From assembly GCA_964565925.1 (NCBI GenBank), contig CAZMGV010000001.1, forward strand, positions 430,618 to 494,617: a stretch of 64,000 nucleotides of DNA. The letters are read 5' to 3'. Position numbers and translations under genes: made by a program. Shown here piece after piece: positions 153 to 18,199 of this stretch; the first letter of the stretch is position 1; every line of letters starts with the position of its first letter. The notes below the pieces were generated by a model. The model was given only the letters and a program-made list of their open reading frames with translations. It ran no database searches and was not told the origin of the DNA. This DNA is from an uncultured bacterium (lineage in GTDB: Bacteria; JAGRBM01; JAHCIT01).

Positions 153-410
153 ATGAGTAACCGCACCACTCAGCTGAAGAATACAAGCACAAAGGGCACT
201 CCCGTTGCCTACGTGCGTGACTCGAAGGGCAAACCGGTGGCGGCGATTGTCGATCTACGCATCTACCGCCAGTTCCAGAAATTCCAGAGACAGTTCGGCT
301 CGCAACTGGATCAACTGGCCAAAACTTACCGAGACGTCCCCGCTGAGACAGCGATCCGCGAGATTGACGCTGCTGTCCGCCACGCACAAAAAACGACGCG
401 CGCCCGGTAG
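153..410 (+). CDS. putative type II antitoxin of a VapBC-like pair (85 aa)
   Basis: Small basic ORF immediately upstream (11-nt gap) of a PIN-domain gene. Size and operon position are typical of a Phd/VapB-type antitoxin. I recognise no named domain with certainty. Confidence 0.5.
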   Translation: MSNRTTQLKNTSTKGTPVAYVRDSKGKPVAAIVDLRIYRQFQKFQRQFGSQLDQLAKTYRDVPAETAIREIDAAVRHAQKTTRAR

Positions 411-421
411 CCTGATCCCTC

Positions 422-835
422 TTGAAAGCCGTACTGGATACCAACGTGTTCATGTCGGGCCTCATGCTGCCCGATAGTATTCCCGGCAAAATTATCAGCG
501 GGTGGCGTAGCCAGCTCTTTCATCTCGCCACGAGCGGACCGCAGCTCGCAGAAATAGAGCGAGTATTGTCCTACCCCCGAATCCGTAAACGGCTGCACTG
601 GGGTCATGAACAGGTAAGCAGTTTCATCGAAGGTCTTCATGTTTTTGCCGAATTGGTCGAACCGGATACTGTAAACGTGACCCAACTCGATGATGCCGAC
701 CGCGCAATCCTCGGAACTTTCACAGCCTCCAAAGCCCGCTGGCTGGTCACCGGCGACAACGATCTGCTCGTGCTTTCAGGCCGGTATTCCGTCATCACCC
801 CGGCCCGGTTCCTGCCGAAACTTTCGCGCCGCTAA
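422..835 (+). CDS. vapC: PIN-domain ribonuclease toxin (VapC-like)
   Basis: TTG start. N-terminal LKAVLDTNVF motif (conserved Asp of PIN), acidic residues further on, about 137 aa. Tightly follows the small upstream ORF. Confidence 0.7.
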   Translation: MKAVLDTNVFMSGLMLPDSIPGKIISGWRSQLFHLATSGPQLAEIERVLSYPRIRKRLHWGHEQVSSFIEGLHVFAELVEPDTVNVTQLDDADRAILGTFTASKARWLVTGDNDLLVLSGRYSVITPARFLPKLSRR

Positions 836-940
836 AGCCCTCTTGACTCCCCCTCCTCCATCAGCCACAACTTGCGCCTTCCGGGGGTAGCCCGGCGGGG
901 TTCGCTTAGGCGGTTTCCCCAAGGATTACGGAGAGTTATC

Positions 941-1255
941 ATGCACGCGGTCATCGAGACAAACGGCAAGCAGTTCCGGGTCGCCCAGGGCGACAAGCTG
1001 GTGTTGGACCGGCTGGCGGCCAAAGTCGGCTCGGAAGTCGTCATCGACAAGGTCCTTTTCATCGAGAAGGACGGCGGCGAGACCGTCGTGGGCAAGCCCT
1101 ACGTGAGCGGCGCGAAGGTCACCTTCAAGGTGGTCGAAGAGATGCGCGGCCCCAAGCTCCTCATCTGGAAGCACCGCCGGCGCAAGAACTCGCGCAAGCG
1201 CCAGGGCCACCGTGCGGACCAGTCCCGCGTGGAAATCACCGGGATCTCGGCCTGA
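941..1255 (+). CDS. rplU: 50S ribosomal protein L21
   Basis: MHAVIETNGKQFRV...KFKVVEE...IWKHRRRKNSRKRQGHR is the L21 signature. Conserved L21-L27-Obg order. ATG at 941 lies within the longer ORF 872-1255. Confidence 0.9.
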   Translation: MHAVIETNGKQFRVAQGDKLVLDRLAAKVGSEVVIDKVLFIEKDGGETVVGKPYVSGAKVTFKVVEEMRGPKLLIWKHRRRKNSRKRQGHRADQSRVEITGISA

Positions 1256-1302
1256 CCGCCGACGCCTGTAGTCGAAGCCTGTAAAGGAAGGATTCAAGAG
1301 TC

Positions 1303-1563
1303 ATGGCAGACAGACCAAATGGACGCGATTCCCACGGCCAGCGGCGCGAGGTCAAGCGCGCGGACGGCCAGAAGGTGATCGCCGGAAACATCATCGTCCG
1401 CCAGGTGGGCACGCGCGTGCACCCCGGCAAGAACGTGGCGATGGGCCGCGACTACACGATCTTCGCGACCGCCGAAGGCACCGTGAAGTTTACCCGCTGG
1501 GGCAAGGACCGCAAGCGCGTCCATGTGATCCCGGCCGAGGAGAAGGCGGCCGCGAAGAACTGA
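1303..1563 (+). CDS. rpmA: 50S ribosomal protein L27
   Basis: [44 protein letters not shown] is the L27 signature. Confidence 0.9.
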
Positions 1564-1584
1564 CGCAGTCAGATCAGCCTCTGT

Positions 1585-1625
1585 AAGATTCGCGCCCCCT
1601 TGACGGTCACCCCGGCAAGGGGGCG
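1585..1625 (+). terminator. GC-rich hairpin after rpmA (GCGCCCCCTT-N15-AAGGGGGCGC)
   Basis: Perfect 10-bp stem between rpmA and obg, with no U-tract. May act as an attenuator or processing site. Confidence 0.35.
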
Positions 1626-1644
1626 CAGTTCATAGGACCCATTT

Positions 1645-2709
1645 ATGAAGTTCGTCGACGAGGTCGTAATCCACGTCTCTTCCGGCCACGGCGGGAAGGG
1701 TGCGGTCGCGTTTCTGCGCGAGAAGTTCCGGCCCCGCGGCGGCCCCGCCGGCGGCAACGGCGGCGACGGCGGCAGCGTCATCCTGCGGGCCACGACCCGC
1801 AAGCAGACGCTGCTCGACTTCCGGTACTCGCCCAACGCCTTCGCCAAGGACGGCCAGGGCGGACTCGGCAATGAAATGTACGGCAAAGCTTCGCCCGATC
1901 TCGTGCTCGAGGTCCCCGTCGGCACCCGCGCCTACAAGCTGCCCGACAACTCGATTCTGTGCGACCTCACGAAAGACGGCGAGGAAGTGGTGATCGCCAA
2001 GGGCGGGCGCGGCGGCATGGGCAACATGCACTTCGCCACCTCGCGCAACCAGGCGCCCCGCTACGCGCAACCCGGCCTGCCGGGCGAGGCGTTCGACATG
2101 CGGCTGGAACTGCAACTGCTGGCGGATGTGGGCCTTGTGGGCCTGCCCAACGCCGGCAAGTCGACGCTCATCAGCCGCATCTCGGCCGCCAAGCCCAAGA
2201 TCGCCGACTATCCGTTCACGACGCTGGTGCCGAACCTGGGCGTCGTGCAGTGGGGCGACTTCAAGACCTACGTCGTCGCCGATCTGCCCGGCATCATCGA
2301 GGGCGCCCACGAGGGCGCGGGCCTGGGCATCCGGTTTTTGAAGCACGCCCGCCGCTCGCGCGTGCTGTTATTCGTAATCGACATGGCGGCGCCCGAAGAT
2401 CCCGCGAAGACCTACGACCTGCTGCTCAGGGAGATCAAGGCATTCGACAAGTCGATGCTGGACAAGCCCCGTCTCGTGGCGCTGAACAAGATGGACACGC
2501 GGCCCGACGAGAAGCTCCTGAAGACGACGCTCCAGAAGCTCAAGCGCAAGAAGGTCGAAGTCATGACGATCTCCGGCGTGTCGGGCGAGAACATCCCCCA
2601 GCTCAAGATCCGGCTCGGCCAGATACTCCTCGAACTGGGCATGCGCCGCCCCGAAGAAACTCCGGCCGGAGACAGCGGCGCGGAGGCGGGCGAGGGAGAC
2701 GACTGGTGA
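1645..2709 (+). CDS. obg: GTPase Obg/CgtA
   Basis: MKFVDEVVIHVSSGHGGKGAVAFLREKF...GGNGGDGGSV is the Obg fold. G-domain motifs GLPNAGKST, DLPGIIEGA and NKMD. Confidence 0.9.
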   Translation: MKFVDEVVIHVSSGHGGKGAVAFLREKFRPRGGPAGGNGGDGGSVILRATTRKQTLLDFRYSPNAFAKDGQGGLGNEMYGKASPDLVLEVPVGTRAYKLPDNSILCDLTKDGEEVVIAKGGRGGMGNMHFATSRNQAPRYAQPGLPGEAFDMRLELQLLADVGLVGLPNAGKSTLISRISAAKPKIADYPFTTLVPNLGVVQWGDFKTYVVADLPGIIEGAHEGAGLGIRFLKHARRSRVLLFVIDMAAPEDPAKTYDLLLREIKAFDKSMLDKPRLVALNKMDTRPDEKLLKTTLQKLKRKKVEVMTISGVSGENIPQLKIRLGQILLELGMRRPEETPAGDSGAEAGEGDDW

Positions 2710-3830
2710 GCCGCGACCTCATCAAGAACGTGAAGCGGGCGGTGATCAAGCTCGGCTCGCGCGTGCTCGTGAGCGGCGACCGGATCGACGCCGAACGGCT
2801 CGCGCGCATCGTCGACGAGATCGCCGCGCTCAAAAAGCGCGGGGTGCAGGTGGCCATTGTGACCTCCGGCGCCGTCGCCTCGGGACGCTCGCGGCTCGGT
2901 CTCAAGGAAAAGCCCCGCACCATTCCGCTCAAGCAGGCGGTCGCTGCTGTGGGCCAGAGCCTGCTCATGCACACCTACGCCACCGAGTTCGACCGCCACA
3001 GCGTCGCCGTGGGCCAGGTGCTGCTCACGCAGCAGGTGGTCAACAACCGCCAGCTTTTCCTGAACGCCCGCAACACGCTCGAGACCCTGTTCGAGCTGGG
3101 CGTCATTCCGATCATCAACGAGAACGACACGGTGGCCGTGGAAGAGATCAAGCTGGGCGACAACGACCGGCTCTCCTCCATCGTGGCAGGGCTGTTGAAA
3201 GCCGACCTGCTCGTGATCCTCACCGATGTGGACGGGCTCTACGACAAGAACCCCAACGACCACAAGGACGCCCGGCGCATCGGGTTTGTCCCGCAGATTA
3301 CGTCCGAACTCAGAGCCGCCGCCGGCGGCACCGGCTCGGACGTGGGCCTGGGCGGCATGCGGACCAAACTCGATGCCGCCGAGACGGCCACCCGCGCCGG
3401 CACGGCGACGGTGGTGGCGGCCGGAGTGAAACCAGGCTCGATCACCCGGATCCTCGAAGGAGCCGACGAGGGGACGTTTTTCGCGCCGGACCCCAAGGGG
3501 GTATCATCGCGCCAGCAGTGGATCGGCTATTCGCTGCAGGTAAAGGGCGAACTGGTCTTGGACGCAGGGGCGATGCAGGCCTTGAAGGGCGGCAAGAAGT
3601 CGCTGCTTCCGGCCGGAGTGAAAGAAGTGCGCGGCGAATTCGAGGCCGGGGACTGCGTCAAATGCTCGGGCCCCGACGGTACCGAATTCGCCCGCGGGCT
3701 CGTCACCTACAGTTCGCGGGACATCCAGAAACTGGCGGGGCATCGCACCGACGACATCGAAAAGCTGCTCGGATACCGCAGTGTGGACGAGATCATCCAA
3801 CGGGATGACCTCGTGATCCTGAACGGTTAG
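2706..3830 (+). CDS. proB: glutamate 5-kinase (with C-terminal PUA domain)
   Basis: GTG start overlapping the obg stop (GTGA). VIKLGSRVL...VAIVTSGAV...IINENDTVAVEEIKLGDNDRLS is the ProB core. PUA-like C-terminus. Followed by proA. Confidence 0.85.
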   Translation: MSRDLIKNVKRAVIKLGSRVLVSGDRIDAERLARIVDEIAALKKRGVQVAIVTSGAVASGRSRLGLKEKPRTIPLKQAVAAVGQSLLMHTYATEFDRHSVAVGQVLLTQQVVNNRQLFLNARNTLETLFELGVIPIINENDTVAVEEIKLGDNDRLSSIVAGLLKADLLVILTDVDGLYDKNPNDHKDARRIGFVPQITSELRAAAGGTGSDVGLGGMRTKLDAAETATRAGTATVVAAGVKPGSITRILEGADEGTFFAPDPKGVSSRQQWIGYSLQVKGELVLDAGAMQALKGGKKSLLPAGVKEVRGEFEAGDCVKCSGPDGTEFARGLVTYSSRDIQKLAGHRTDDIEKLLGYRSVDEIIQRDDLVILNG

Positions 3831-3864
3831 ATTCAGAAGGACCTGCTCTCCAAGGGAGTTCATC

Positions 3865-5145
<1,281 letters not shown>

Positions 5146-5187
5146 TCCACAGACTGATTACCGAACCGATCGCACATAAAGGACAGC

Positions 5188-5844
5188 ATGGCGAAGACGA
5201 CGAAAAAGACGACGAAGAAAGCCCCGGCAAAATCCGCGAAAGCGGCCGCGAAGAAGCCCGCCCCAAAGCCGGTGAAGAAACCGGCCGCGCCCGCAAAGGG
5301 CTCGAAGAAACCCATCAGGACAGCCTCGAAAGCGGCGTCGAAGGCACCGGTGAAGCGTCCGGCCCCGAAGCCGGCGGCTAAACCGGTGGCAAAGGCGGCC
5401 CTCAAAACGGCGCCTGCGGCCACCGGAAAACCCGCCCCCAAAGCGCCGCCCAAGCCTGATCCCTCCCGCGAACAGCTCCACCGGCTCGTCAAAGCGCTGC
5501 TGGACAAGAAGGGCCAGGCGGTGACGAGTATCGAGGTGGGCGACATTGTCGGTTACACCGAATTCTATCTCATCGCGACCGGGACCTCGACCAAGCATAA
5601 CCAGACCCTCTGCGACGCCATTGTCGAGTCGGAAACGAAGACCGGCCACCAGAAACCGCGCCGCGAGGGGTACAACTTCGGCAACTGGATCGTCGTCGAC
5701 GCCGGGGACGTGATCGTCCACCTGTTCGACGACGCCTCCCGCCACCATTACGACCTGGAGCGCCTGTTCCTGGAATCCGAACGCAAGCTCTACGGCGAGG
5801 ACGGCAAGATCGTCGACCTGCCACGGATGAACCGGGGGGCCTGA
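5188..5844 (+). CDS. rsfS: ribosome silencing factor RsfS (Iojap) with an N-terminal lysine/alanine/proline-rich histone-H1-like extension of about 95 aa
   Basis: The C-terminal about 115 aa match RsfS (GDIVGYTEFYLIATGTSTKHNQTLCDAIVE...NWIVVDAGDVIVHLF...YDLERLF). The N-terminus is AKKPAPKPVKKPAAPAKG-type repeats. It is one continuous ORF. Confidence 0.8.
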   Translation: MAKTTKKTTKKAPAKSAKAAAKKPAPKPVKKPAAPAKGSKKPIRTASKAASKAPVKRPAPKPAAKPVAKAALKTAPAATGKPAPKAPPKPDPSREQLHRLVKALLDKKGQAVTSIEVGDIVGYTEFYLIATGTSTKHNQTLCDAIVESETKTGHQKPRREGYNFGNWIVVDAGDVIVHLFDDASRHHYDLERLFLESERKLYGEDGKIVDLPRMNRGA

Positions 5845-5862
5845 GGCCGCCACAGGCAATCT

Positions 5863-6336
5863 GTGAAACTGATCCTCGCCGCTGTCGGGAAGATGAAATC
5901 CGCCCCGCTCAAGGAACTGGCGCAGGATTATGCCGGACGGGTCGGGCGCTTCGCCTCCCTGGATATCCGGGAGGCCGCCGAGACGAAAATCGAGGCCCGC
6001 TCGCCATCGGATAACGACCGGAAACGGGCCGTCCAGGAAGAAGGTGCAAGACTTCTGGCAAAAAGCGACGGGGCCGTCTATGCACTGTCTCCCGACGGGA
6101 AGCCCCTGTCGACGGAAGAGTGGAAAAATCTGCTCGACCGGATCGAACAGGAGGCCCGGCCCGCCACTTTCGTGATCGGAGGGGCGTTCGGGCTCTCGGA
6201 GGAAGTCAAAAAAAAGGCTTCCAGGATCGTTTCCCTGTCCCCGGCCACCTTTACCCATGAACTTGCCCGCGTGCTCGTTCTCGAACAACTCTACAGGGCC
6301 TGGACGCTGAAAAAGGGCGTCCCGTACCACTACTAG
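5863..6336 (+). CDS. rlmH: 23S rRNA (pseudouridine1915-N3)-methyltransferase RlmH
   Basis: SPOUT-fold RlmH pattern (KLILAAVGK...FVIGGAFGLSEEV...SLSPATFTHELARVLVLEQLYRAW). Conserved rsfS-rlmH adjacency. GTG start. Confidence 0.85.
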   Translation: MKLILAAVGKMKSAPLKELAQDYAGRVGRFASLDIREAAETKIEARSPSDNDRKRAVQEEGARLLAKSDGAVYALSPDGKPLSTEEWKNLLDRIEQEARPATFVIGGAFGLSEEVKKKASRIVSLSPATFTHELARVLVLEQLYRAWTLKKGVPYHY

Positions 6337-6350
6337 GAAAGCCGACCAAC

Positions 6351-6758
6351 ATGCTCACGCCCGACCAGACCCGCCAGTGCAAGGCCAAACTGAACGAAAT
6401 CCGTGAAGGCCTGCTCGCCGAAGTGGCCAGCATCCGCGAATCGGCCGAAGCCCTCGACGAAGGCCAGGGCGCGGCCGACCTCGCCGACGCCTCTACGTCG
6501 CAGTACGACCGGGCGTTCCTGGGCCGGATGTCAGAAGCCGACCAGAAGCTGCTGGAGCGGGTCGACAATGCGCTCCAGCGCATTAACGGCAAGGATTACG
6601 GGATCTGCGAGGACTGCAGCGAAGAGATTCCGTTCAAGCGTCTCCTGACGGTCCCCTACGGCGAACGCTGCATCGCGTGCCAGGAAATCCTGGAGCGCGA
6701 CGAGAAGAACCGCAGCTCCGGCCGGGCGAGCGAGACCGGAACCGGATTCGAAGAGTAA
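6351..6758 (+). CDS. DksA/TraR-family C4 zinc-finger protein
   Basis: Coiled-coil N-terminal part and a C-terminal CEDCSEEIPFKRLLTVPYGERCIACQ four-Cys zinc finger typical of the DksA/TraR family. Confidence 0.7.
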   Translation: MLTPDQTRQCKAKLNEIREGLLAEVASIRESAEALDEGQGAADLADASTSQYDRAFLGRMSEADQKLLERVDNALQRINGKDYGICEDCSEEIPFKRLLTVPYGERCIACQEILERDEKNRSSGRASETGTGFEE

Positions 6759-6794
6759 CGGCCATCCACGGGCGGATGTGACGAGGTATCTGCG

Positions 6795-8354
6795 ATGGGG
6801 ACGAAAAACCCTGTACTGCTTATCATCATGGACGGCTGGGGGCTGGGCAAAGACGAGCCCACCAATGCCGTGAAGGCCGCCAATACCCCGGTCGTGAACG
6901 CCCTTTTCGCCAACAATCCGTGGGTGCCGGTGAAAACCTCCGGCGAGGACGTGGGCCTTCCCAAGGGCCAGATGGGCAACTCCGAAGTCGGTCATCTGAA
7001 CATCGGTGCCGGCCGGATCGTTTACCAGAGCCTCTCGCTCATCTACCGCGACATTGAAAACGGCAGCTTCTTCGAGAACAGGGAACTGGTTGCGGTCTGC
7101 GACAAGGTGAAGGCCGAAAAGGGAGCCCTGCATCTCATGGGGCTCGTCTCCGACGGCGGCGTACACAGCCACGTCGATCACCTGGTCGCCCTGATGAAGC
7201 TCGCCAGGCAGCAGCATATCGAGCGGGTGTATATCCATGCATTCCTGGACGGGCGCGATACGGCCCCCAAGAGCGCTCTGGAGTTCATCCAGACGGTTGA
7301 AACGGCCATCAAGGCGTTGGAAATCGGACGCATCGTCACCGTATCGGGCCGGTTCTACGCCATGGACCGTGACAAGCGCTGGGACCGCCTGAAGCTGGCC
7401 TATGACGCCATGGTGAGCGGCCGCTCCGACTTTGTTGCCGGCTCGGCGCAGGAGGCGGTCGTCGCCGCCTACGCTCGCGGCGAAACCGACGAGTTCGTCA
7501 AACCCACGATCATCTGCAACGAAAAAAAGAACTTCATCGGCCAGATCAACGACCGCGACGGCGTGATATTTTTCAACTTCCGTGCAGACCGTGCGCGCCA
7601 GATCTCCCGCGCGCTGACGGACCCGAAGTTCCAGGAGTTCGACCGGGGCCGGGTACCGAAGCTGAGCGGGTTCGTCTGCTTCACCGAATACGACGCGACG
7701 CTGAAGCTCCCCTATGCGTTCACCAACGAGGAGCCGAAGAATACTCTCGGTGAAATACTGTCGAGATCGAAGCTGCTGCAGTTGCGGGCCGCCGAAACGG
7801 AAAAGTACGCCCACGTGACCTACTTCTTCAACGGCGGACAGGAAAAGGTGTTCGAGGGCGAGGACCGGATCATGGTGCCCTCCCCCAAGGACGTGAAGAC
7901 GTACGACCAGAAGCCGGAGATGAGCTGCGCCGAACTGACCGACAAGGTGATCGAGGCGATCCAGAAGAAGGATTATTCCTTCATCGCGCTCAACTACGCC
8001 AACTCCGACCAGGTGGGGCATACCGGCGTGCTGCCGGCGGCGATCCAGGCGAACGAGGCGATGGACAAGTGTCTCGCCCGCCTCGTCCCTGCCGCCAAGG
8101 CCAAGGGCTACAACGTCATCATCACCGCCGATCACGGCAACTCCGAGCAGATGCTCGACACCGCGACGGGCCGCCCCTACACGCAGCATACGACCAATCC
8201 GGTCGCTTTCATTCTGGACTCCGCGGGCGGCCAGAAGCTGGAGCTGCGCGAAGGCGGACGCCTGAGCGACATCGCACCGACGGTGCTGGATCTTCTCGGC
8301 ATCAAGCCGCCGCCCGAGATGAGCGGCAAGACCCTGATCGTTCATGGCGGTTGA
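6795..8354 (+). CDS. gpmI: 2,3-bisphosphoglycerate-independent phosphoglycerate mutase
   Basis: LLIIMDGWG...GNSEVGHLNIGAGR...ITADHGN are iPGM metal-site motifs. 519 aa. Confidence 0.9.
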   Translation: MGTKNPVLLIIMDGWGLGKDEPTNAVKAANTPVVNALFANNPWVPVKTSGEDVGLPKGQMGNSEVGHLNIGAGRIVYQSLSLIYRDIENGSFFENRELVAVCDKVKAEKGALHLMGLVSDGGVHSHVDHLVALMKLARQQHIERVYIHAFLDGRDTAPKSALEFIQTVETAIKALEIGRIVTVSGRFYAMDRDKRWDRLKLAYDAMVSGRSDFVAGSAQEAVVAAYARGETDEFVKPTIICNEKKNFIGQINDRDGVIFFNFRADRARQISRALTDPKFQEFDRGRVPKLSGFVCFTEYDATLKLPYAFTNEEPKNTLGEILSRSKLLQLRAAETEKYAHVTYFFNGGQEKVFEGEDRIMVPSPKDVKTYDQKPEMSCAELTDKVIEAIQKKDYSFIALNYANSDQVGHTGVLPAAIQANEAMDKCLARLVPAAKAKGYNVIITADHGNSEQMLDTATGRPYTQHTTNPVAFILDSAGGQKLELREGGRLSDIAPTVLDLLGIKPPPEMSGKTLIVHGG

Positions 8355-8418
8355 CCGGGCTTCCGGCCGGGCCAGCCAGTCCGGTACGTCCGGCTGGAAC
8401 CGGATTTTCCATCCGGCC

Positions 8419-9033
8419 ATGTCCTACTTCCGGAGACGGCGCCTTGCCCGTTTTCTCGCCGCATACCCCGGCCTGCCCGAAATGCAGGTACTCGACATCG
8501 GCGGCACGCCGCAGATCTGGGAAATCCTGAAAGCCGAGTTCGGCACATTCCCGAAACGGGTAGTGCTTCTCAATCTGGAGCCGCTGGCCGACGTCCCGCC
8601 GGGCTACGAGTCGGTCACCGCGTCGGCGCTCGACATCCCGTTTCCCGACAGGGCGTTCGATCTCTCCTTCTCGAACTCGGTAATCGAGCACGTCGGCACT
8701 CCGGCCGATATGGCGAAGTTCGCCAGCGAATGCCGCCGGGTCGGCCGTTCGATTTACCTGCAGACGCCCAACCGGTGGTTCCCGGTCGAACCCCATATCC
8801 TGACCGTCTTTCTGCACTGGCTCCCGCAGAAGCTCTACCGGAACCTGTCGTTCCTGTCGCTGCGGCGGCTTTTCTACCTGGGGGACCCGGACGGGTTTTA
8901 CCGGATTCTCGATACCACGCGGCTGCTCTCGGCGGCCGATGTCGCCCGGTTGTTTCCCGATCTGGCAGGAAACCTGGCACGGGAAAAACTGCTCGGACTC
9001 ACCAAGTCTTTCGTGATCACCGACCGGAAGTAG
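8419..9033 (+). CDS. class I SAM-dependent methyltransferase (Methyltransf_11-like)
   Basis: VLDIGGTPQ (motif I), FDLSFSNSVIEH and SIYLQTPN motifs. Start placed at the internal ATG (MSYFRR) to avoid overlap with gpmI. The longer ORF begins at 8344. Confidence 0.6.
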   Translation: MSYFRRRRLARFLAAYPGLPEMQVLDIGGTPQIWEILKAEFGTFPKRVVLLNLEPLADVPPGYESVTASALDIPFPDRAFDLSFSNSVIEHVGTPADMAKFASECRRVGRSIYLQTPNRWFPVEPHILTVFLHWLPQKLYRNLSFLSLRRLFYLGDPDGFYRILDTTRLLSAADVARLFPDLAGNLAREKLLGLTKSFVITDRK

Positions 9034-10257
9034 TTACGCGGCGGCAGTCCGCGTGAGGCGGCCGAACCAGACCGCACTGATGACGAGCGGTATGCAAATC
9101 GTTGCCGCCAGCCAGATCTGCTGTTCCATTGCGCCGAACCAGAAGGCGGCGGCTCCGATCAGGACCCCGTGACGCACCCATTCGAGCGGCGCCGCCCAGG
9201 ATTTCCCTTCAAACAGCCCTCCCCAGACCACGGTTGTCAGGATAATCATTACCCCGATCGCCGCCTGAACCCAGAGCGGCAGCCCGTCCTTGAACAGCTG
9301 GAGCGAGGTAATACCCGCGCCAATAACCACGAAATGCGAATCCACATATTTCTTGTAGGCCTTGGGAAACTCGGTGTCCCACTTGGTGAACTTGCCGGCG
9401 TCGACGGGCGGTGCCTTCTTCGGACCGCCCAGATCGGCCGGGTTCCACTCGGGATTAGCGAACCAGACCCATAATTTATCGGTGAACTTTTTCGTCTGCA
9501 CCGACCGGTCCCACATCTCTTTCCAGTAGTCGAAGTTCGCCCACGCGGGGTTCCAGCTCGCGTACGGCTTCACTGTCCCGAAGACCGGTGCGGCGCCTTC
9601 AGGTTCAAACGTCCCGAACATCCGGTCCCAGATGATCAGGATACCCGCGTGATTGCGGTCGATGTATTCCGGGTTGATCCCGTGATGGACCCGGTGATGG
9701 GACGGCGTATTCATCACCGACTCGTACCAGCCGGGAAGCCTGTCCACCGTCTGTGTGTGAATCCAGAACTGGTAGAGAAGGCTGATGGCGATATTCCCCG
9801 CGAAGACGAGCGGCGGGACGCCCAGCAGCGCCAGCGGGAAATAGATCGGCGTCGCGGCGAACCCCTGGAACCATGACTGCCGCAGCGCCACCGCCAGATT
9901 GTAGTCCTGACTCTGGTGGTGGACGACATGAAGCGCCCACAGAACGTTGATCTCGTGGCTCAGACGGTGGAACCAGTAGTAGAGAAAATCGACGCCGAAA
10001 AACCCGAGTATCCAGGCCGCCGCCGGATATGGCTCCAGATCGATCAGCCGGTACTGGCTGTATACCCAGGCATACGCCATGAGCGACAGCAGGCCCAGGA
10101 ACACCCGGATGACTTCGGACCCGATACCGCAGCTCAGGCAGGCGATGGAATCGGCGTAGCGGTAGAGGCGCTTGCCCTGCTTGCGCATGACGAGCACTTC
10201 CACGCCGATAAGTCCGAAAAAAGCGGGCACCGCCAGCGCAATGGGGTCGAGTTTCAC
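9034..10257 (-). CDS. fatty acid hydroxylase superfamily / sterol desaturase-family membrane protein
   Basis: Histidine boxes HRLSHE, HVVHH and HHRVHHG within a hydrophobic region, plus a large C-terminal extension. Start assigned to the GTG (VKLDP...) 32 nt after the upstream gene's stop. The unbroken ORF runs to 10329. Confidence 0.65.
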   Translation of the reverse strand: MKLDPIALAVPAFFGLIGVEVLVMRKQGKRLYRYADSIACLSCGIGSEVIRVFLGLLSLMAYAWVYSQYRLIDLEPYPAAAWILGFFGVDFLYYWFHRLSHEINVLWALHVVHHQSQDYNLAVALRQSWFQGFAATPIYFPLALLGVPPLVFAGNIAISLLYQFWIHTQTVDRLPGWYESVMNTPSHHRVHHGINPEYIDRNHAGILIIWDRMFGTFEPEGAAPVFGTVKPYASWNPAWANFDYWKEMWDRSVQTKKFTDKLWVWFANPEWNPADLGGPKKAPPVDAGKFTKWDTEFPKAYKKYVDSHFVVIGAGITSLQLFKDGLPLWVQAAIGVMIILTTVVWGGLFEGKSWAAPLEWVRHGVLIGAAAFWFGAMEQQIWLAATICIPLVISAVWFGRLTRTAAA

Positions 10258-16084: not shown

Positions 16085-17233
16085 CTAGACGCCCCGTTCG
16101 GGCGGCGGTTCCGTTTCCACCGATTCGAAAAACACCTTGATGCCGAAGATGAGCGCGATCACGACGCAGGTACCGGCGCCAGCCAGCAGGAGGTCGCCGC
16201 CCGTCCAGCCGGCCGCGCGGACGATAAACCCGGTTACGAGCAGCGCCGCCCCGCCCGTGAGCGCGCGGATCGAGAGCACCGCCGCGGCCCCCGGAGACCC
16301 GGCTGCGCCGAACGCGTGGCCGAGCAGCAGCGGCAGCACGAAGCCCAGAATGATCCCGTGGTGAGCGGCGCGGCGGATGTCGTCGCCGCCTGTCTGCTGG
16401 TAGCGGTACAGGAGCACGGTCGAGGTCAGGAACAGGATGCCGATGGCCCAGGCGGTGAACTGCTCGGAGGACCTCCTGGGCAGAAGCGTGGCCAGATGCA
16501 GGAGGCTCAGGACGCCGAGCATCAGGGTCGGGACCGCGAGGTGGTCGGCCTGCCCGTAGAGGGAGAGCACGGCGCTCGAGACCGACGCCAGTACGGCCAG
16601 GATCAGTTCGAGAGCCGGCTGCCAGCCGAGTATGTGCCCCGGCTCGCCCGGCGACGGGAAGTGATCGACCGACAGGGCCGCCAGCAGCAGCCCGCCGAAC
16701 ACGCCGAGCATCGTGTGGGCGGATTTGTATTCGAACCGGAATCCGCCGTTCCACATGACGAGCGCCATCCAGGCAGCCCCCCCGAGGAGCAGCAGCGCAG
16801 CGGTGCCATGCATAAGCGCCCCGCTGTGGGGTCTCGGGCGGCCGGAGTCGGGCTTGAACCCGCCCGTGTGCATGAACGCCCGCCAGCAGAGCGCCCCGTA
16901 GAAGAGCAGCGCCAGCAGCAGGCACACAGGGCCGGCGGCGAGCAGTTCGTAGCGCCACAGAAGCCCCGCCGAGAACGCGGCCAGCGTGCCGTGCGTGAGG
17001 CCGAGCAGCGTAAACCCCGCCGCCCGCACCGGAAATACGCCGCCCATGCGTTCGGAAAACAGGCCCATCCAGAGATGCAGGATACCGCCGAGAATTGCCG
17101 CGTGGATGTGGAACTTTAGCGCGAAGTGAGGGACACCGTCCGCGCCCACGATGGCGATCGTGAAGCCGAGCATGGCCGCGGCGAGCAGCCAGAACAGTCC
17201 GACAGTGACAAACAGCCGTTCGGTCCGGGTCAT
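16085..17233 (-). CDS. polytopic integral membrane protein, function unknown
   Basis: About 12 predicted hydrophobic spans with many conserved His. Positioned within the lipid-enzyme gene string. No confident family assignment. Confidence 0.45.
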   Translation of the reverse strand: MTRTERLFVTVGLFWLLAAAMLGFTIAIVGADGVPHFALKFHIHAAILGGILHLWMGLFSERMGGVFPVRAAGFTLLGLTHGTLAAFSAGLLWRYELLAAGPVCLLLALLFYGALCWRAFMHTGGFKPDSGRPRPHSGALMHGTAALLLLGGAAWMALVMWNGGFRFEYKSAHTMLGVFGGLLLAALSVDHFPSPGEPGHILGWQPALELILAVLASVSSAVLSLYGQADHLAVPTLMLGVLSLLHLATLLPRRSSEQFTAWAIGILFLTSTVLLYRYQQTGGDDIRRAAHHGIILGFVLPLLLGHAFGAAGSPGAAAVLSIRALTGGAALLVTGFIVRAAGWTGGDLLLAGAGTCVVIALIFGIKVFFESVETEPPPERGV

Positions 17234-17239
17234 GGATGC

Positions 17240-17884
17240 TCAGGCCTTCCTCATGCCCACGGTGACGGAGGCCAGTTCCTGTTTCCAGAGCAGGTCGACG
17301 TTGGAGAGCGAGACCGCCTCCAGGCATTTGCGGATGTGCTCGGCCGCCATCCGGGGATTTCTCCCCTTCTGCCGGTCGGGGACTGACGGAGCCGGACTCA
17401 AAGATACCGACTGGCGGTATTCGCCCAGGCGCCGCACGTAGTCGGCTTCCAGCTCCTTCGACGACGCCGCCAGTTCCGTTCCCCAGAACAGCATCCCCCC
17501 CTCGCGCAGTTTCGCGGAGAGGCGGCCGATCAGCAGCAGCGGCATGTCGGCCGTGGCGCTGTCGGCGACAAACGGCGCCCAGATCACGTGGAACCCGCCC
17601 GGAAGTTTCGTCTCCCAGGCGCCGGAGAACCACTCGGCCCGGATGAACCGCACGCGCCCGGCGATGGCGGCCGTGGCGGCGCGAGCCGCCTGCTCCGACG
17701 GTTCGTCGCGGCAGAACACAATGAACCGGGCGTTCGGGCGAAGCCGCGCGAACTCGGGCGCCCAGAGGGGCCCCAGACCGTTCTCGAACAGTTCCAGCAC
17801 AAGCACCGGCTCATCCCCCGAATAGGGAAAGTGCGAGACGATCAGTTCGGGGGTGAGACCCGGATACGGGGATTTGAAGTCCAA
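17240..17884 (-). CDS. hypothetical protein (weak Rossmann/methyltransferase-like pattern)
   Basis: 6-nt gap to the downstream membrane gene. VLVLELFENGLG and RFIVFCRD faintly resemble MTase motifs I/II. Assignment is weak. Confidence 0.4.
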   Translation of the reverse strand: MDFKSPYPGLTPELIVSHFPYSGDEPVLVLELFENGLGPLWAPEFARLRPNARFIVFCRDEPSEQAARAATAAIAGRVRFIRAEWFSGAWETKLPGGFHVIWAPFVADSATADMPLLLIGRLSAKLREGGMLFWGTELAASSKELEADYVRRLGEYRQSVSLSPAPSVPDRQKGRNPRMAAEHIRKCLEAVSLSNVDLLWKQELASVTVGMRKA

Positions 17885-17917
17885 CAGGGAGCCGCCTGTG
17901 CGTTCGTTCAGCGCCGG

Positions 17918-18199
17918 TTAGTGATAAGTGAAGCCGGGGCGCATCTTCGGTTTCGAGTCGCCCAGCAGCGCGTCCAGCAGAATGACCGCCGCCGCGCCGA
18001 AAATCGCCGCCGCGAGCAGCCCCAGGACCGCGATTCCCGCCGTCGCAAAGAGCAGCGGCGCGGCCACCGCGATCTGCGCCGGCTCCATCCGCCGGAGCCG
18101 TTCCCACAGGTCCGCCAGCGTCCGCCCCTCGGTCTCGCCGCCGGGGTTCTGGTCGGGGTCCGGCATCATGCCATTCAGGATCTCGTCGAAACGGGACAT
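17918..18199 (-). CDS. small membrane protein (93 aa)
   Basis: One long hydrophobic helix (IAVAAPLLFATAGIAVLGLLAAAIFGAAAVILL). First gene after the long ORF-free region. Confidence 0.35.
   Translation of the reverse strand: MSRFDEILNGMMPDPDQNPGGETEGRTLADLWERLRRMEPAQIAVAAPLLFATAGIAVLGLLAAAIFGAAAVILLDALLGDSKPKMRPGFTYH

What the first reader, a model, noticed from the sequence alone, without database searches (positions are those of the whole stretch)
5188..5500. Histone-H1-like KPA-repeat extension fused to the ribosome silencing factor RsfS
The first 95 residues or so of the rsfS ORF are (A/K/P)-rich repeats (KKAPAKSAKAAAKKPAPKPVKKPAAPAKG...). They resemble H1/AlgP-type nucleic-acid-binding tails. 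A canonical RsfS domain follows in the same frame. RsfS is normally a compact protein of about 110 aa. A polycationic tail could tether it to rRNA or the nucleoid. The usual nadD between proA and rsfS is also absent here.
Basis: seen in the sequence. Interest (0 to 1): 0.5.

Follow-up and report, generated by a model that had tools for sequence, protein, structure and literature searches.

The report
RsfS with a lysine-rich disordered tail
The gene is a genuine ribosome silencing factor (RsfS) carrying a real, about 95-residue, strongly positive, disordered N-terminal tail; many other bacteria have the same kind of tail on RsfS, so it is an unstudied but fairly ordinary variation and not a one-off.

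Summary
ORF 5188-5844 (+) encodes 218 aa. Residues 1-96 are 73% Ala/Lys/Pro (net charge +26). Residues 99-194 are a full RsfS domain (Pfam 3e-24, TIGR00090 equivalog). An independent assembly is base-identical, so there is no frameshift. Four orthologues (63-79% identical overall) keep a 61-66 aa tail in the same ORF.

The tail has no homology to H1, HC2 or AlgP: there is no Pfam hit even at E<=10, and no regular repeat. The resemblance is in composition only. AlphaFold2 predicts coil for residues 1-88 and a confident RsfS fold after that.

The architecture is not rare. All 120 top full-length hits carry lysine-rich N-tails. In an unbiased search with the domain alone, 13 of 150 representatives do. 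They include Alphaproteobacteria and a Bacteroidetes MAG, in loci of 35-66% GC.

The nearest RsfS domains outside this clade have no tail, so the tail was probably gained independently. Charge density is held at +0.25 to +0.28 per residue while the tail sequence drifts. This argues for selection on charge.

Most likely the tail is a non-specific polyanion (rRNA) affinity arm that helps RsfS bind the 50S subunit. That mechanism is inferred, not shown. Interest is modest.

The parts
5188..5844 (+). rsfS ORF, 218 aa plus stop
   Evidence: ORF; PF02410 3e-24; TIGR00090 equivalog 84 bits; the same 218-aa protein is called on the NCBI contig; independent assembly is identical
5179..5183 (+). Shine-Dalgarno-like AAGGA, 4 nt before the ATG
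   Evidence: sequence. The N-terminus MAK(T/P/K) is conserved in orthologues P0002-P0005.
5188..5475 (+). Polycationic low-complexity N-terminal tail, residues 1-96 (A26 K25 P19, net +26), predicted disordered
   Evidence: composition, uniqueness in the window, Lys/Arg ratio; AF2: no secondary structure, pLDDT 50-65 for residues 1-88; no homology
5194..5217 (+). 12-nt tandem micro-duplication (AAGACGACGAAA/G) encoding KTTK-KTTK. It shows how the tail can change length by slippage.
5482..5769 (+). RsfS/Iojap domain, residues 99-194. It includes Y188, the equivalent of S. aureus Y98.
   Evidence: ungapped alignment to 6sj5_A/6sj6_9; Y188 invariant in 60 sequences; pLDDT above 90; Foldseek TM 0.80-0.92 to RsfS structures
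5770..5841 (+). C-terminal extension conserved in the clade, residues 195-218 (LESERKLYGEDGKIVDLPRM...). A beta-hairpin is predicted at 199-211.
   Evidence: conserved in 5 orthologues; other tailed RsfS end about 18 residues earlier; pLDDT about 90
3865..5145 (+). proA (gamma-glutamyl phosphate reductase), the upstream neighbour; 42-nt gap to rsfS
   Evidence: Same order in L001, L002 and L009.
5863..6336 (+). rlmH (SPOUT methyltransferase), the downstream neighbour; 18-nt gap after the rsfS stop
   Evidence: PF02590 1.3e-41; conserved synteny
1645..2709 (+). obg (50S-associated GTPase), in the same gene cluster; no basic tail here
   Evidence: GTP1_OBG, MMR_HSR1; no A/K/P segment

Best explanation
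SHOWN: the gene encodes a bona fide RsfS, the factor that caps ribosomal protein uL14 on the 50S subunit and blocks 30S joining. This copy has acquired an N-terminal tail of about 95 residues that is lysine-rich and predicted to be disordered. The tail lies inside the ORF and is kept in all known relatives. Its charge density, not its sequence, is conserved.

INFERRED: the tail works as a non-specific polyanion-binding arm. Because the RsfS core docks at the subunit interface next to 23S rRNA helix 95 and bL19, a flexible +26 arm anchored at the core's N-terminus should contact nearby rRNA backbone. That would raise the on-rate and affinity for 50S or pre-50S particles by electrostatic steering. 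It would also enlarge the steric and electrostatic block against 30S association during starvation or late 50S assembly.
For: Identity of the protein:
- Pfam and TIGR hits above the curated cut-offs.
- AF2 plus Foldseek give TM 0.80-0.92 to RsfS in 50S complexes 6sj6_9, 9ss4 and 7bl2.
- The anti-association residue Y98 of S. aureus (PMC9503621) corresponds to Y188, which is invariant.
- The gene sits in the rplU-rpmA-obg-proB-proA-rsfS-rlmH cluster.

The tail is real:
- An independent assembly is identical.
- Orthologues P0002-P0005 carry 61-66 aa tails in one ORF, with a conserved MAK start.

Selection on charge:
- Net charge per residue is 0.25-0.28 in all five orthologues. Tail identity is only 35-62%, against 67-86% for the domain.
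- Lys/Arg is 8.3 in the tail against 0.76 in the genome background, despite 63% GC.
- The same lysine-rich (26-40% K), Arg-poor tails occur on RsfS in loci of 35%, 44%, 64% and 66% GC.
- Basic tails are found in at least 6 domain clusters at 50% identity. The nearest non-clade domains to this clade are tail-less, so the gains look convergent.

Pointers to the ribosome as the target:
- RsfS binds in a cavity formed by uL14, bL19 and H95, with additional basic-residue contacts to rRNA phosphates. N-terminally His-tagged RsfS still binds 50S (PMC7125091).
- In locus L008, Obg also carries an A/K/P tail. Obg is another factor that binds the 50S interface and is encoded in the same operon.
Against: No binding data exist. 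A polycation cannot distinguish rRNA from DNA or polyphosphate, so the target is inferred only from where the core domain docks. I could not examine coordinates to show where the N-terminus of the core points on the 50S subunit. Most RsfS proteins work without a tail (88 of 150), so the tail is dispensable for the basic mechanism. In this window Obg, RlmH, L21 and L27 have no such tails, so there is no general 'ribosome-factor tail' habit in this organism.
Confidence: 0.5

Rival explanations
1. Nucleoid/DNA tether. The tail binds chromosomal DNA. This places RsfS, or the 50S subunits it has captured, on the nucleoid, or gives RsfS a second role as a nucleoid-associated protein.
For: The composition matches DNA-binding Lys/Ala/Pro tails. 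Examples are the PAKKA repeats of M. smegmatis Ku, which modulate DNA binding (PMC3553676), HBHA acting as a nucleoid-associated protein (PMC10665949), and the precomputed PF07382 (HC2) hits on some tailed RsfS homologues.
Against: The tail has no homology to H1, HC2 or AlgP. It is attached to a domain whose only known partner is uL14 on the 50S subunit. The operon context is ribosome assembly (obg, rlmH, rplU, rpmA), not chromatin.
Confidence: 0.13
2. Polyphosphate coupling. The tail binds polyP, which accumulates in starvation. This recruits RsfS to polyP granules or makes its activity or stability respond to polyP.
For: The Lys/Pro/Ala-repeat protein AlgP associates with polyP granules in P. 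aeruginosa (PMC9239181). Both RsfS and polyP act in starvation.
Against: This rests on analogy only. No ppk or ppx gene was noticed among the genes I annotated next to rsfS. The AlgP repeats are regular and C-terminal, unlike this tail.
Confidence: 0.1
3. The tail has no specific ligand. It could be a tolerated low-complexity expansion produced by replication slippage, or a generic 'entropic bristle' that affects solubility or half-life and makes no contribution to ribosome binding.
For: Tail length varies (96 against 61-66 aa). The window copy contains a 12-nt slippage duplication. Tail sequence conservation is poor. Most RsfS proteins lack a tail.
Against: The tail is retained in every member of the clade with near-constant charge density and almost no acidic residues. 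Lysine is favoured against the genome's GC bias. Similar tails recur independently across at least 6 domain clusters in loci spanning 35-66% GC. Neutral drift would not hold charge constant.
Confidence: 0.2
4. Annotation or assembly artefact. Either the true start is an internal GTG (residues 29, 55 or 67), or an indel has fused an upstream ORF to rsfS.
For: One gene caller started the protein at GTG-55 (P0001, 164 aa). In-frame GTGs exist.
Against: The DNA of that contig is identical to the window, so the difference is only the caller's choice of start. The MAK N-terminus is conserved across orthologues whose tails differ in length. An AAGGA motif lies just upstream. Even the latest GTG would leave a basic tail of about 30 aa. 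No orthologue splits the region into two genes.
Confidence: 0.04

Closest known systems
Canonical bacterial RsfS (E. coli YbeB/RsfS; S. aureus RsfS, PDB 6SJ5/6SJ6; M. tuberculosis 4WCW)
   Same: The domain is the same (PF02410/TIGR00090). The predicted fold matches (TM 0.80-0.92). The tyrosine needed for anti-association is conserved (Y98 corresponds to Y188). The operon neighbourhood with rlmH and obg is the same.
   Different: The canonical proteins are 105-139 aa and have no long N-terminal extension. This one adds 96 disordered, strongly basic residues and a conserved C-terminal hairpin of about 20 residues. nadD is not adjacent.
Tailed RsfS already present in public databases (for example P0006 in chromosome OW818643.1, 'Alphaproteobacteria bacterium' and Rhizomicrobium MAG proteins, Bacteroidetes MAG L006), and PDB 28ye_G (152 aa)
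   Same: These have the same architecture: a lysine-rich N-tail of 39-116 aa, poor in Arg and acidic residues, directly before the RsfS domain. 28ye_G has a shorter basic N-extension of about 35 aa.
   Different: Their domains are only 28-38% identical to this one, less than the tail-less RsfS at 40-43%. The tail here therefore looks like an independent gain. None of these tails is described in any paper I could search. The organism of 28ye_G, and whether its extension is resolved, are unknown to me.
MALSU1 (C7orf30) and plant Iojap, the organellar RsfS homologues
   Same: Each is an RsfS domain preceded by an N-terminal extension of about 80-90 residues, and each binds uL14 of the large subunit (5ool_u and related chains).
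   Different: From general knowledge: their extensions are targeting or adaptor sequences, and MALSU1 recruits L0R8F8 and mt-ACP. They are not polylysine/alanine/proline tails.
Histone H1 C-terminal domain, chlamydial HC2 (PF07382) and Pseudomonas AlgP
   Same: All share a Lys/Ala/Pro-rich, disordered, polycationic composition that binds polyanions. AlgP associates with polyP granules (PMC9239181).
   Different: There is no detectable sequence homology. This protein has no H1 globular domain and no regular KPAA-type repeat unit. The tail is N-terminal and is attached to a ribosome-binding domain.
PAKKA-type tails of mycobacterial Ku
   Same: Both are low-complexity lysine-rich tails appended to a nucleic-acid-related globular domain. 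In Ku the tail tunes its affinity for DNA (PMC3553676).
   Different: The globular partner differs, and so, presumably, does the ligand (rRNA/50S instead of DNA). The position also differs: C-terminal in Ku, N-terminal here.

Membership tests
RsfS / Iojap (PF02410, TIGR00090) | Profile-HMM match above the curated cut-off over the whole domain | tested here: met
   PF02410 scores 85.5 bits against a cut-off of 21.6, covering residues 99-194 and model positions 2-98 of 98. TIGR00090 (equivalog) scores 84.2 bits against 56.9.
RsfS / Iojap (PF02410, TIGR00090) | RsfS alpha/beta fold | tested here: met
   The AF2 model has pLDDT above 90 for residues 90-215. The top Foldseek PDB hits are all RsfS or MALSU1, with target TM 0.80-0.92 and rmsd 0.8-1.6 A.
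RsfS / Iojap (PF02410, TIGR00090) | Conserved tyrosine required for anti-association (S. aureus Y98; PMC9503621) | tested here: met
   The ungapped phmmer alignment places S. aureus Y98 at Y188. Y188 is invariant in the 60-sequence alignment A3.
RsfS / Iojap (PF02410, TIGR00090) | Typical genomic neighbourhood (rlmH downstream; obg-proB-proA and usually nadD upstream) | tested here: met
   The order is rplU-rpmA-obg-proB-proA-rsfS-rlmH. nadD is missing here and in clade relatives, but nadD adjacency is common and not a defining feature.
RsfS / Iojap (PF02410, TIGR00090) | Binds uL14 on the 50S subunit and prevents 70S formation | not testable with these tools
   This needs biochemistry. It is only inferred from homology.
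Linker histone H1 | Globular winged-helix H1/H5 domain flanked by a basic tail | tested here: not met
   Pfam finds only RsfS in the 218-aa protein. The tail alone matches nothing, even at E<=10.
Chlamydial HC2 histone-like protein (PF07382) | Match to the PF07382 profile | tested here: not met
   The window's tail has no hit. Some tailed RsfS homologues carry precomputed PF07382 hits, which I take to be compositional matches.
AlgP (AlgR3)-type KPAA-repeat proteins | Long array of regular tandem KPAA-like units in the C-terminal half | tested here: not met
   TRF finds only a 12-nt x 2.2 duplication. The other repeats are 71-81% degenerate with irregular spacing. The tail is N-terminal.
Polycationic intrinsically disordered tails (functional class, not a homology family) | Low complexity, high net positive charge, no predicted structure | tested here: met
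   The tail is 73% A+K+P with a net charge of +0.27 per residue. AF2 predicts no secondary structure, with pLDDT 50-65 for residues 1-88.
Polycationic intrinsically disordered tails (functional class, not a homology family) | Demonstrated binding of RNA, DNA or polyP | not testable with these tools
   This needs EMSA or filter binding with and without the tail.

The most novel reading that the evidence does not exclude
Lysine-rich tails were gained independently on RsfS in several bacterial phyla because they change what RsfS does. In this reading, tailed RsfS is not a simple one-to-one cap on uL14. It would bridge or condense 50S/pre-50S particles, possibly together with polyP or with tailed Obg, into a storage state during starvation. 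That would be an undescribed, charge-driven mode of ribosome hibernation.
Probability: 0.08. Interest if true: 0.6.

Novelty: new member of a known kind. Interest (0 to 1): 0.28.

Why it matters
RsfS is the main bacterial factor known to keep ribosomal subunits apart during starvation and late 50S assembly. A lysine-rich arm that recurs on RsfS and appears to be under selection suggests that some lineages tune how strongly, or where, RsfS engages the large subunit. This is cheap to test by comparing full-length and tail-less protein. The result would bear on the wider question of why Lys/Ala/Pro tails are attached to so many bacterial proteins that handle nucleic acids. It does not reveal a new system: the protein family, its operon and this architecture are all already present in public data.

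Tried and rejected
- Tail-only homology search against 5.8 billion proteins. 8000 word-sharing candidates were found, but none scored E<=0.001. The resemblance to other tails is compositional, and I could not build a census of the domains that carry such tails.
- Pfam on the tail at E<=10 gave nothing. PDB sequence search with the tail plus the domain start gave only chance hits with E above 0.5.
- Rfam on the whole window gave no RNA family, so the region does not hide an RNA element.
- Promoter and terminator scan of 800-9100 gave counts at the shuffle expectation and is uninformative.
- Taxon assignment failed. The genome-contig scan returned only 'uncultured bacterium' for the one close relative. 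Cluster look-ups carry no names. MnmG is at most 61% identical to anything outside the clade, and the named hits are spread over Chrysiogenetes, Thermodesulfobacteriota, Binatia and candidate divisions. The lineage therefore remains unplaced.
- Literature searches for RsfS extensions or tails found no description. I could not identify the organism or paper behind PDB 28ye_G.
- P0128 (2450 aa, reported with 15 RsfS stretches; my re-run lists 19) is rejected as a relative. Each stretch scores only -3 to 13 bits against a DUF11-like surface repeat, and the total is a repeat-summing artefact.
- A frameshift or split gene was considered and rejected.
- A link between nadD loss and tail gain was considered and rejected: L008 has both nadD and a tailed RsfS.

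Full report
**What is there**

ORF 5188-5844 on the + strand encodes 218 aa.
- The nearest in-frame upstream stop is at 5155. An AAGGA motif lies 4 nt before the ATG.
- Residues 1-96 are 73% Ala+Lys+Pro (A26, K25, P19). They contain one Asp and one Glu, for a net charge of +26 and a pI of 11.5.
- Residues 99-194 match the whole Pfam RsfS model (3e-24). They also match the NCBIfam equivalog TIGR00090 at 84 bits against a cut-off of 57.
- The tail alone matches no Pfam family, even at E<=10.
- It is the only Lys-rich A/K/P stretch in any frame of the 64 kb window.
- Its Lys/Arg ratio is 8.3, against 0.76 in 30 other genes of this 63% GC window. Base composition therefore does not explain it.
- 'Repeats' is too strong a word. 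TRF reports a single 12-nt x 2.2 duplication coding KTTKKTTKK. The other direct repeats are 71-81% degenerate.

**Is it an artefact?**

No.
- An independent Logan assembly from run SRR14271333 (L007) is identical base for base from the end of proA to rlmH. Its shorter 164-aa gene call (P0001) starts at in-frame GTG-55 and reflects only the gene caller's choice.
- The NCBI gene call on the 621,984-bp parent contig is the same 218-aa protein.
- Four orthologues (P0002-P0005) are 63-79% identical overall and 72-86% identical in the domain. All come from different contigs. All carry a 61-66 aa basic tail in the same ORF and begin MAK(P/K).
- Relatives L001, L002 and L009 have the same gene order: proA-rsfS-rlmH-dksA-like-gpmI in all three, preceded by obg-proB in L001 and L002 (the start of L009 is unannotated). 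None has a separate gene in place of the tail.

**Structure**

I ran AlphaFold2 on a 60-sequence alignment.
- Residues 1-88 have no secondary structure and pLDDT 50-65.
- Residues 90-215 have pLDDT above 90. This includes a C-terminal beta-hairpin at 199-211 that is conserved in the clade.
- Foldseek against the PDB returns only RsfS and MALSU1 chains at the top. These include RsfS bound to S. aureus 50S (6sj6_9) and to E. coli pre-50S particles (9ss4, 7bl2), with target TM 0.80-0.92.
- The ungapped alignment to S. aureus RsfS places its Y98 at Y188. Mutating Y98 abolishes anti-association (PMC9503621). Y188 is invariant across 60 homologues.

**How unusual is it?**

- With the full-length query, all 120 listed hits have an N-terminal extension of 39-116 residues, rich in A/K/P, with net charge +8 to +37. 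That search is biased by words from the tail.
- I therefore searched the domain alone against 1.84 billion representatives. Of the best 150, 88 have fewer than 20 residues before the domain. 46 have 35 or more. 13 have a basic tail, defined as 30 or more residues with net charge of +10 or more.
- Named sources of tailed RsfS include Alphaproteobacteria and Rhizomicrobium MAGs. They also include a 3.43-Mb chromosome, OW818643.1, where the tailed gene follows nadD directly, a Bacteroidetes MAG (L006, 35% GC locus) and an unclassified MAG (L004, 44% GC locus).
- Across these loci (35-66% GC) the tails stay 26-40% Lys with almost no Arg, and net charge per residue is 0.27-0.38.
- A PDB entry (28ye_G, 152 aa) is an RsfS with a shorter basic N-extension.
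- I found no paper that discusses these tails.

**Evolution**

- By domain identity, the closest proteins outside the window's own five-member clade are tail-less RsfS (40-43%). The tailed alphaproteobacterial-type proteins are at 28-38%.
- Basic tails occur in at least six clusters at 50% domain identity.
- Within the clade, tail identity is 35-62% and length varies from 61 to 96 aa. Net charge per residue stays at 0.25-0.28.
- This pattern, together with the use of Lys against the GC bias, indicates convergent gain and selection on charge density and not on sequence.
- The window's copy is the longest in its clade. The 12-nt duplication shows one way the tail can lengthen.

**Mechanism**

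Shown:
- The protein is an RsfS.
- It has a real, conserved, disordered polycationic N-tail.

Established knowledge:
- RsfS docks its acidic beta-sheet on uL14, in a cavity completed by bL19 and 23S rRNA helix 95.
- Basic residues make extra contacts to rRNA phosphates.
- Binding blocks bridge B8.
- N-terminally His-tagged RsfS still binds 50S (PMC7125091).

Inferred (confidence about 0.5): the tail is an rRNA-directed affinity arm that speeds and strengthens capture of 50S or pre-50S particles and enlarges the block to 30S joining. One supporting hint is that in L008, Obg also ends in an A/K/P tail. Obg is another factor that binds the 50S interface side and is encoded in the same cluster.

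Rivals are a DNA/nucleoid tether, polyP coupling by analogy with AlgP (PMC9239181), a ligand-less low-complexity appendage, and a mis-called start. The first three cannot be separated computationally, because a polycation does not discriminate between polyanions. The last is very unlikely.

**Context and taxon**

- The gene lies in the classical rplU-rpmA-obg-proB-proA-rsfS-rlmH cluster.
- nadD is absent from that cluster and from the whole window. It is also absent from the same position in clade relatives. This is independent of the tail.
- The organism could not be placed. Its MnmG is 81-86% identical to four clade members and at most 61% to anything else, with named hits scattered over several phyla.

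**Verdict**

This is a new member of a known protein family. Its sub-architecture is common in databases but unstudied. I rate interest at about 0.28: low to moderate.

Noticed in passing
P0160 (361 aa), P0185, P0176: Some lineages encode NadD-RsfS fusion proteins. The N-terminal part of P0160 carries the NadD GxFxPxHxGH motif, and an RsfS domain sits at residues 245-350. This fits the common nadD-rsfS adjacency that is missing in this window.
   Followed up: partly
P0226, P0141, P0269, P0237, P0180: Other RsfS representatives carry long, strongly acidic C-terminal tails (46-83 aa, net charge -13 to -29). This is the opposite charge solution to the basic N-tail seen here.
   Followed up: no
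L008:1367-1525 (inside obg, 266-1606): In the alphaproteobacterial-type chromosome OW818643.1, the Obg GTPase (446 aa) has a C-terminal Lys/Ala/Pro-rich tail. RsfS in the same operon has a 91-aa N-tail. The window's Obg (354 aa) has no such tail.
   Followed up: partly
window 5770-5841: There is a clade-specific C-terminal extension of RsfS (ERKLYGEDGKIVDLPRM) that is almost invariant in five orthologues. It is predicted as a confident beta-hairpin. Tailed RsfS from other lineages end about 18 residues earlier.
   Followed up: partly
window 6351-6758: A DksA/TraR-type C4 zinc-finger gene (135 aa) lies immediately after rlmH. It is conserved at that position in L001, L007 and L009, which suggests it belongs to the same operon in this clade.
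   Followed up: no
window 153-835: A small ORF (153-410, 85 aa) is followed by a 137-aa ORF (422-835), just upstream of rplU. Relatives L001 and L002 have a 77-aa gene plus a PIN-domain gene at the same position, so this may be a toxin-antitoxin pair. I did not scan the window's own copy against Pfam.
   Followed up: no
window 1959-3830: The mechanical 'longest ORF' for proB (623 aa, GTG) overlaps obg and is over-extended. The AA_kinase domain begins about 12 residues after position 2700, so the real proB is roughly 2706-3830 (about 375 aa, as in L001).
   Followed up: partly
P0128 (2450 aa): This giant surface-repeat protein scores 81 bits against the RsfS domain only because 19 weak repeat matches (-3 to 13 bits each) add up. 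It is a false positive worth remembering when reading whole-sequence E-values.
   Followed up: yes
window 16085-18199 (- strand): Three consecutive ORFs with a good coding signal (382, 214 and 93 aa) have no Pfam match at E<=1e-4.
   Followed up: no
PDB 28ye_G: This is a solved 'Ribosome silencing factor S' of 152 aa with an Arg/Lys/Ala/Pro-rich N-extension of about 35 residues and an alphaproteobacterial-looking core. I could not determine its organism, its paper, or whether the extension is ordered.
   Followed up: partly
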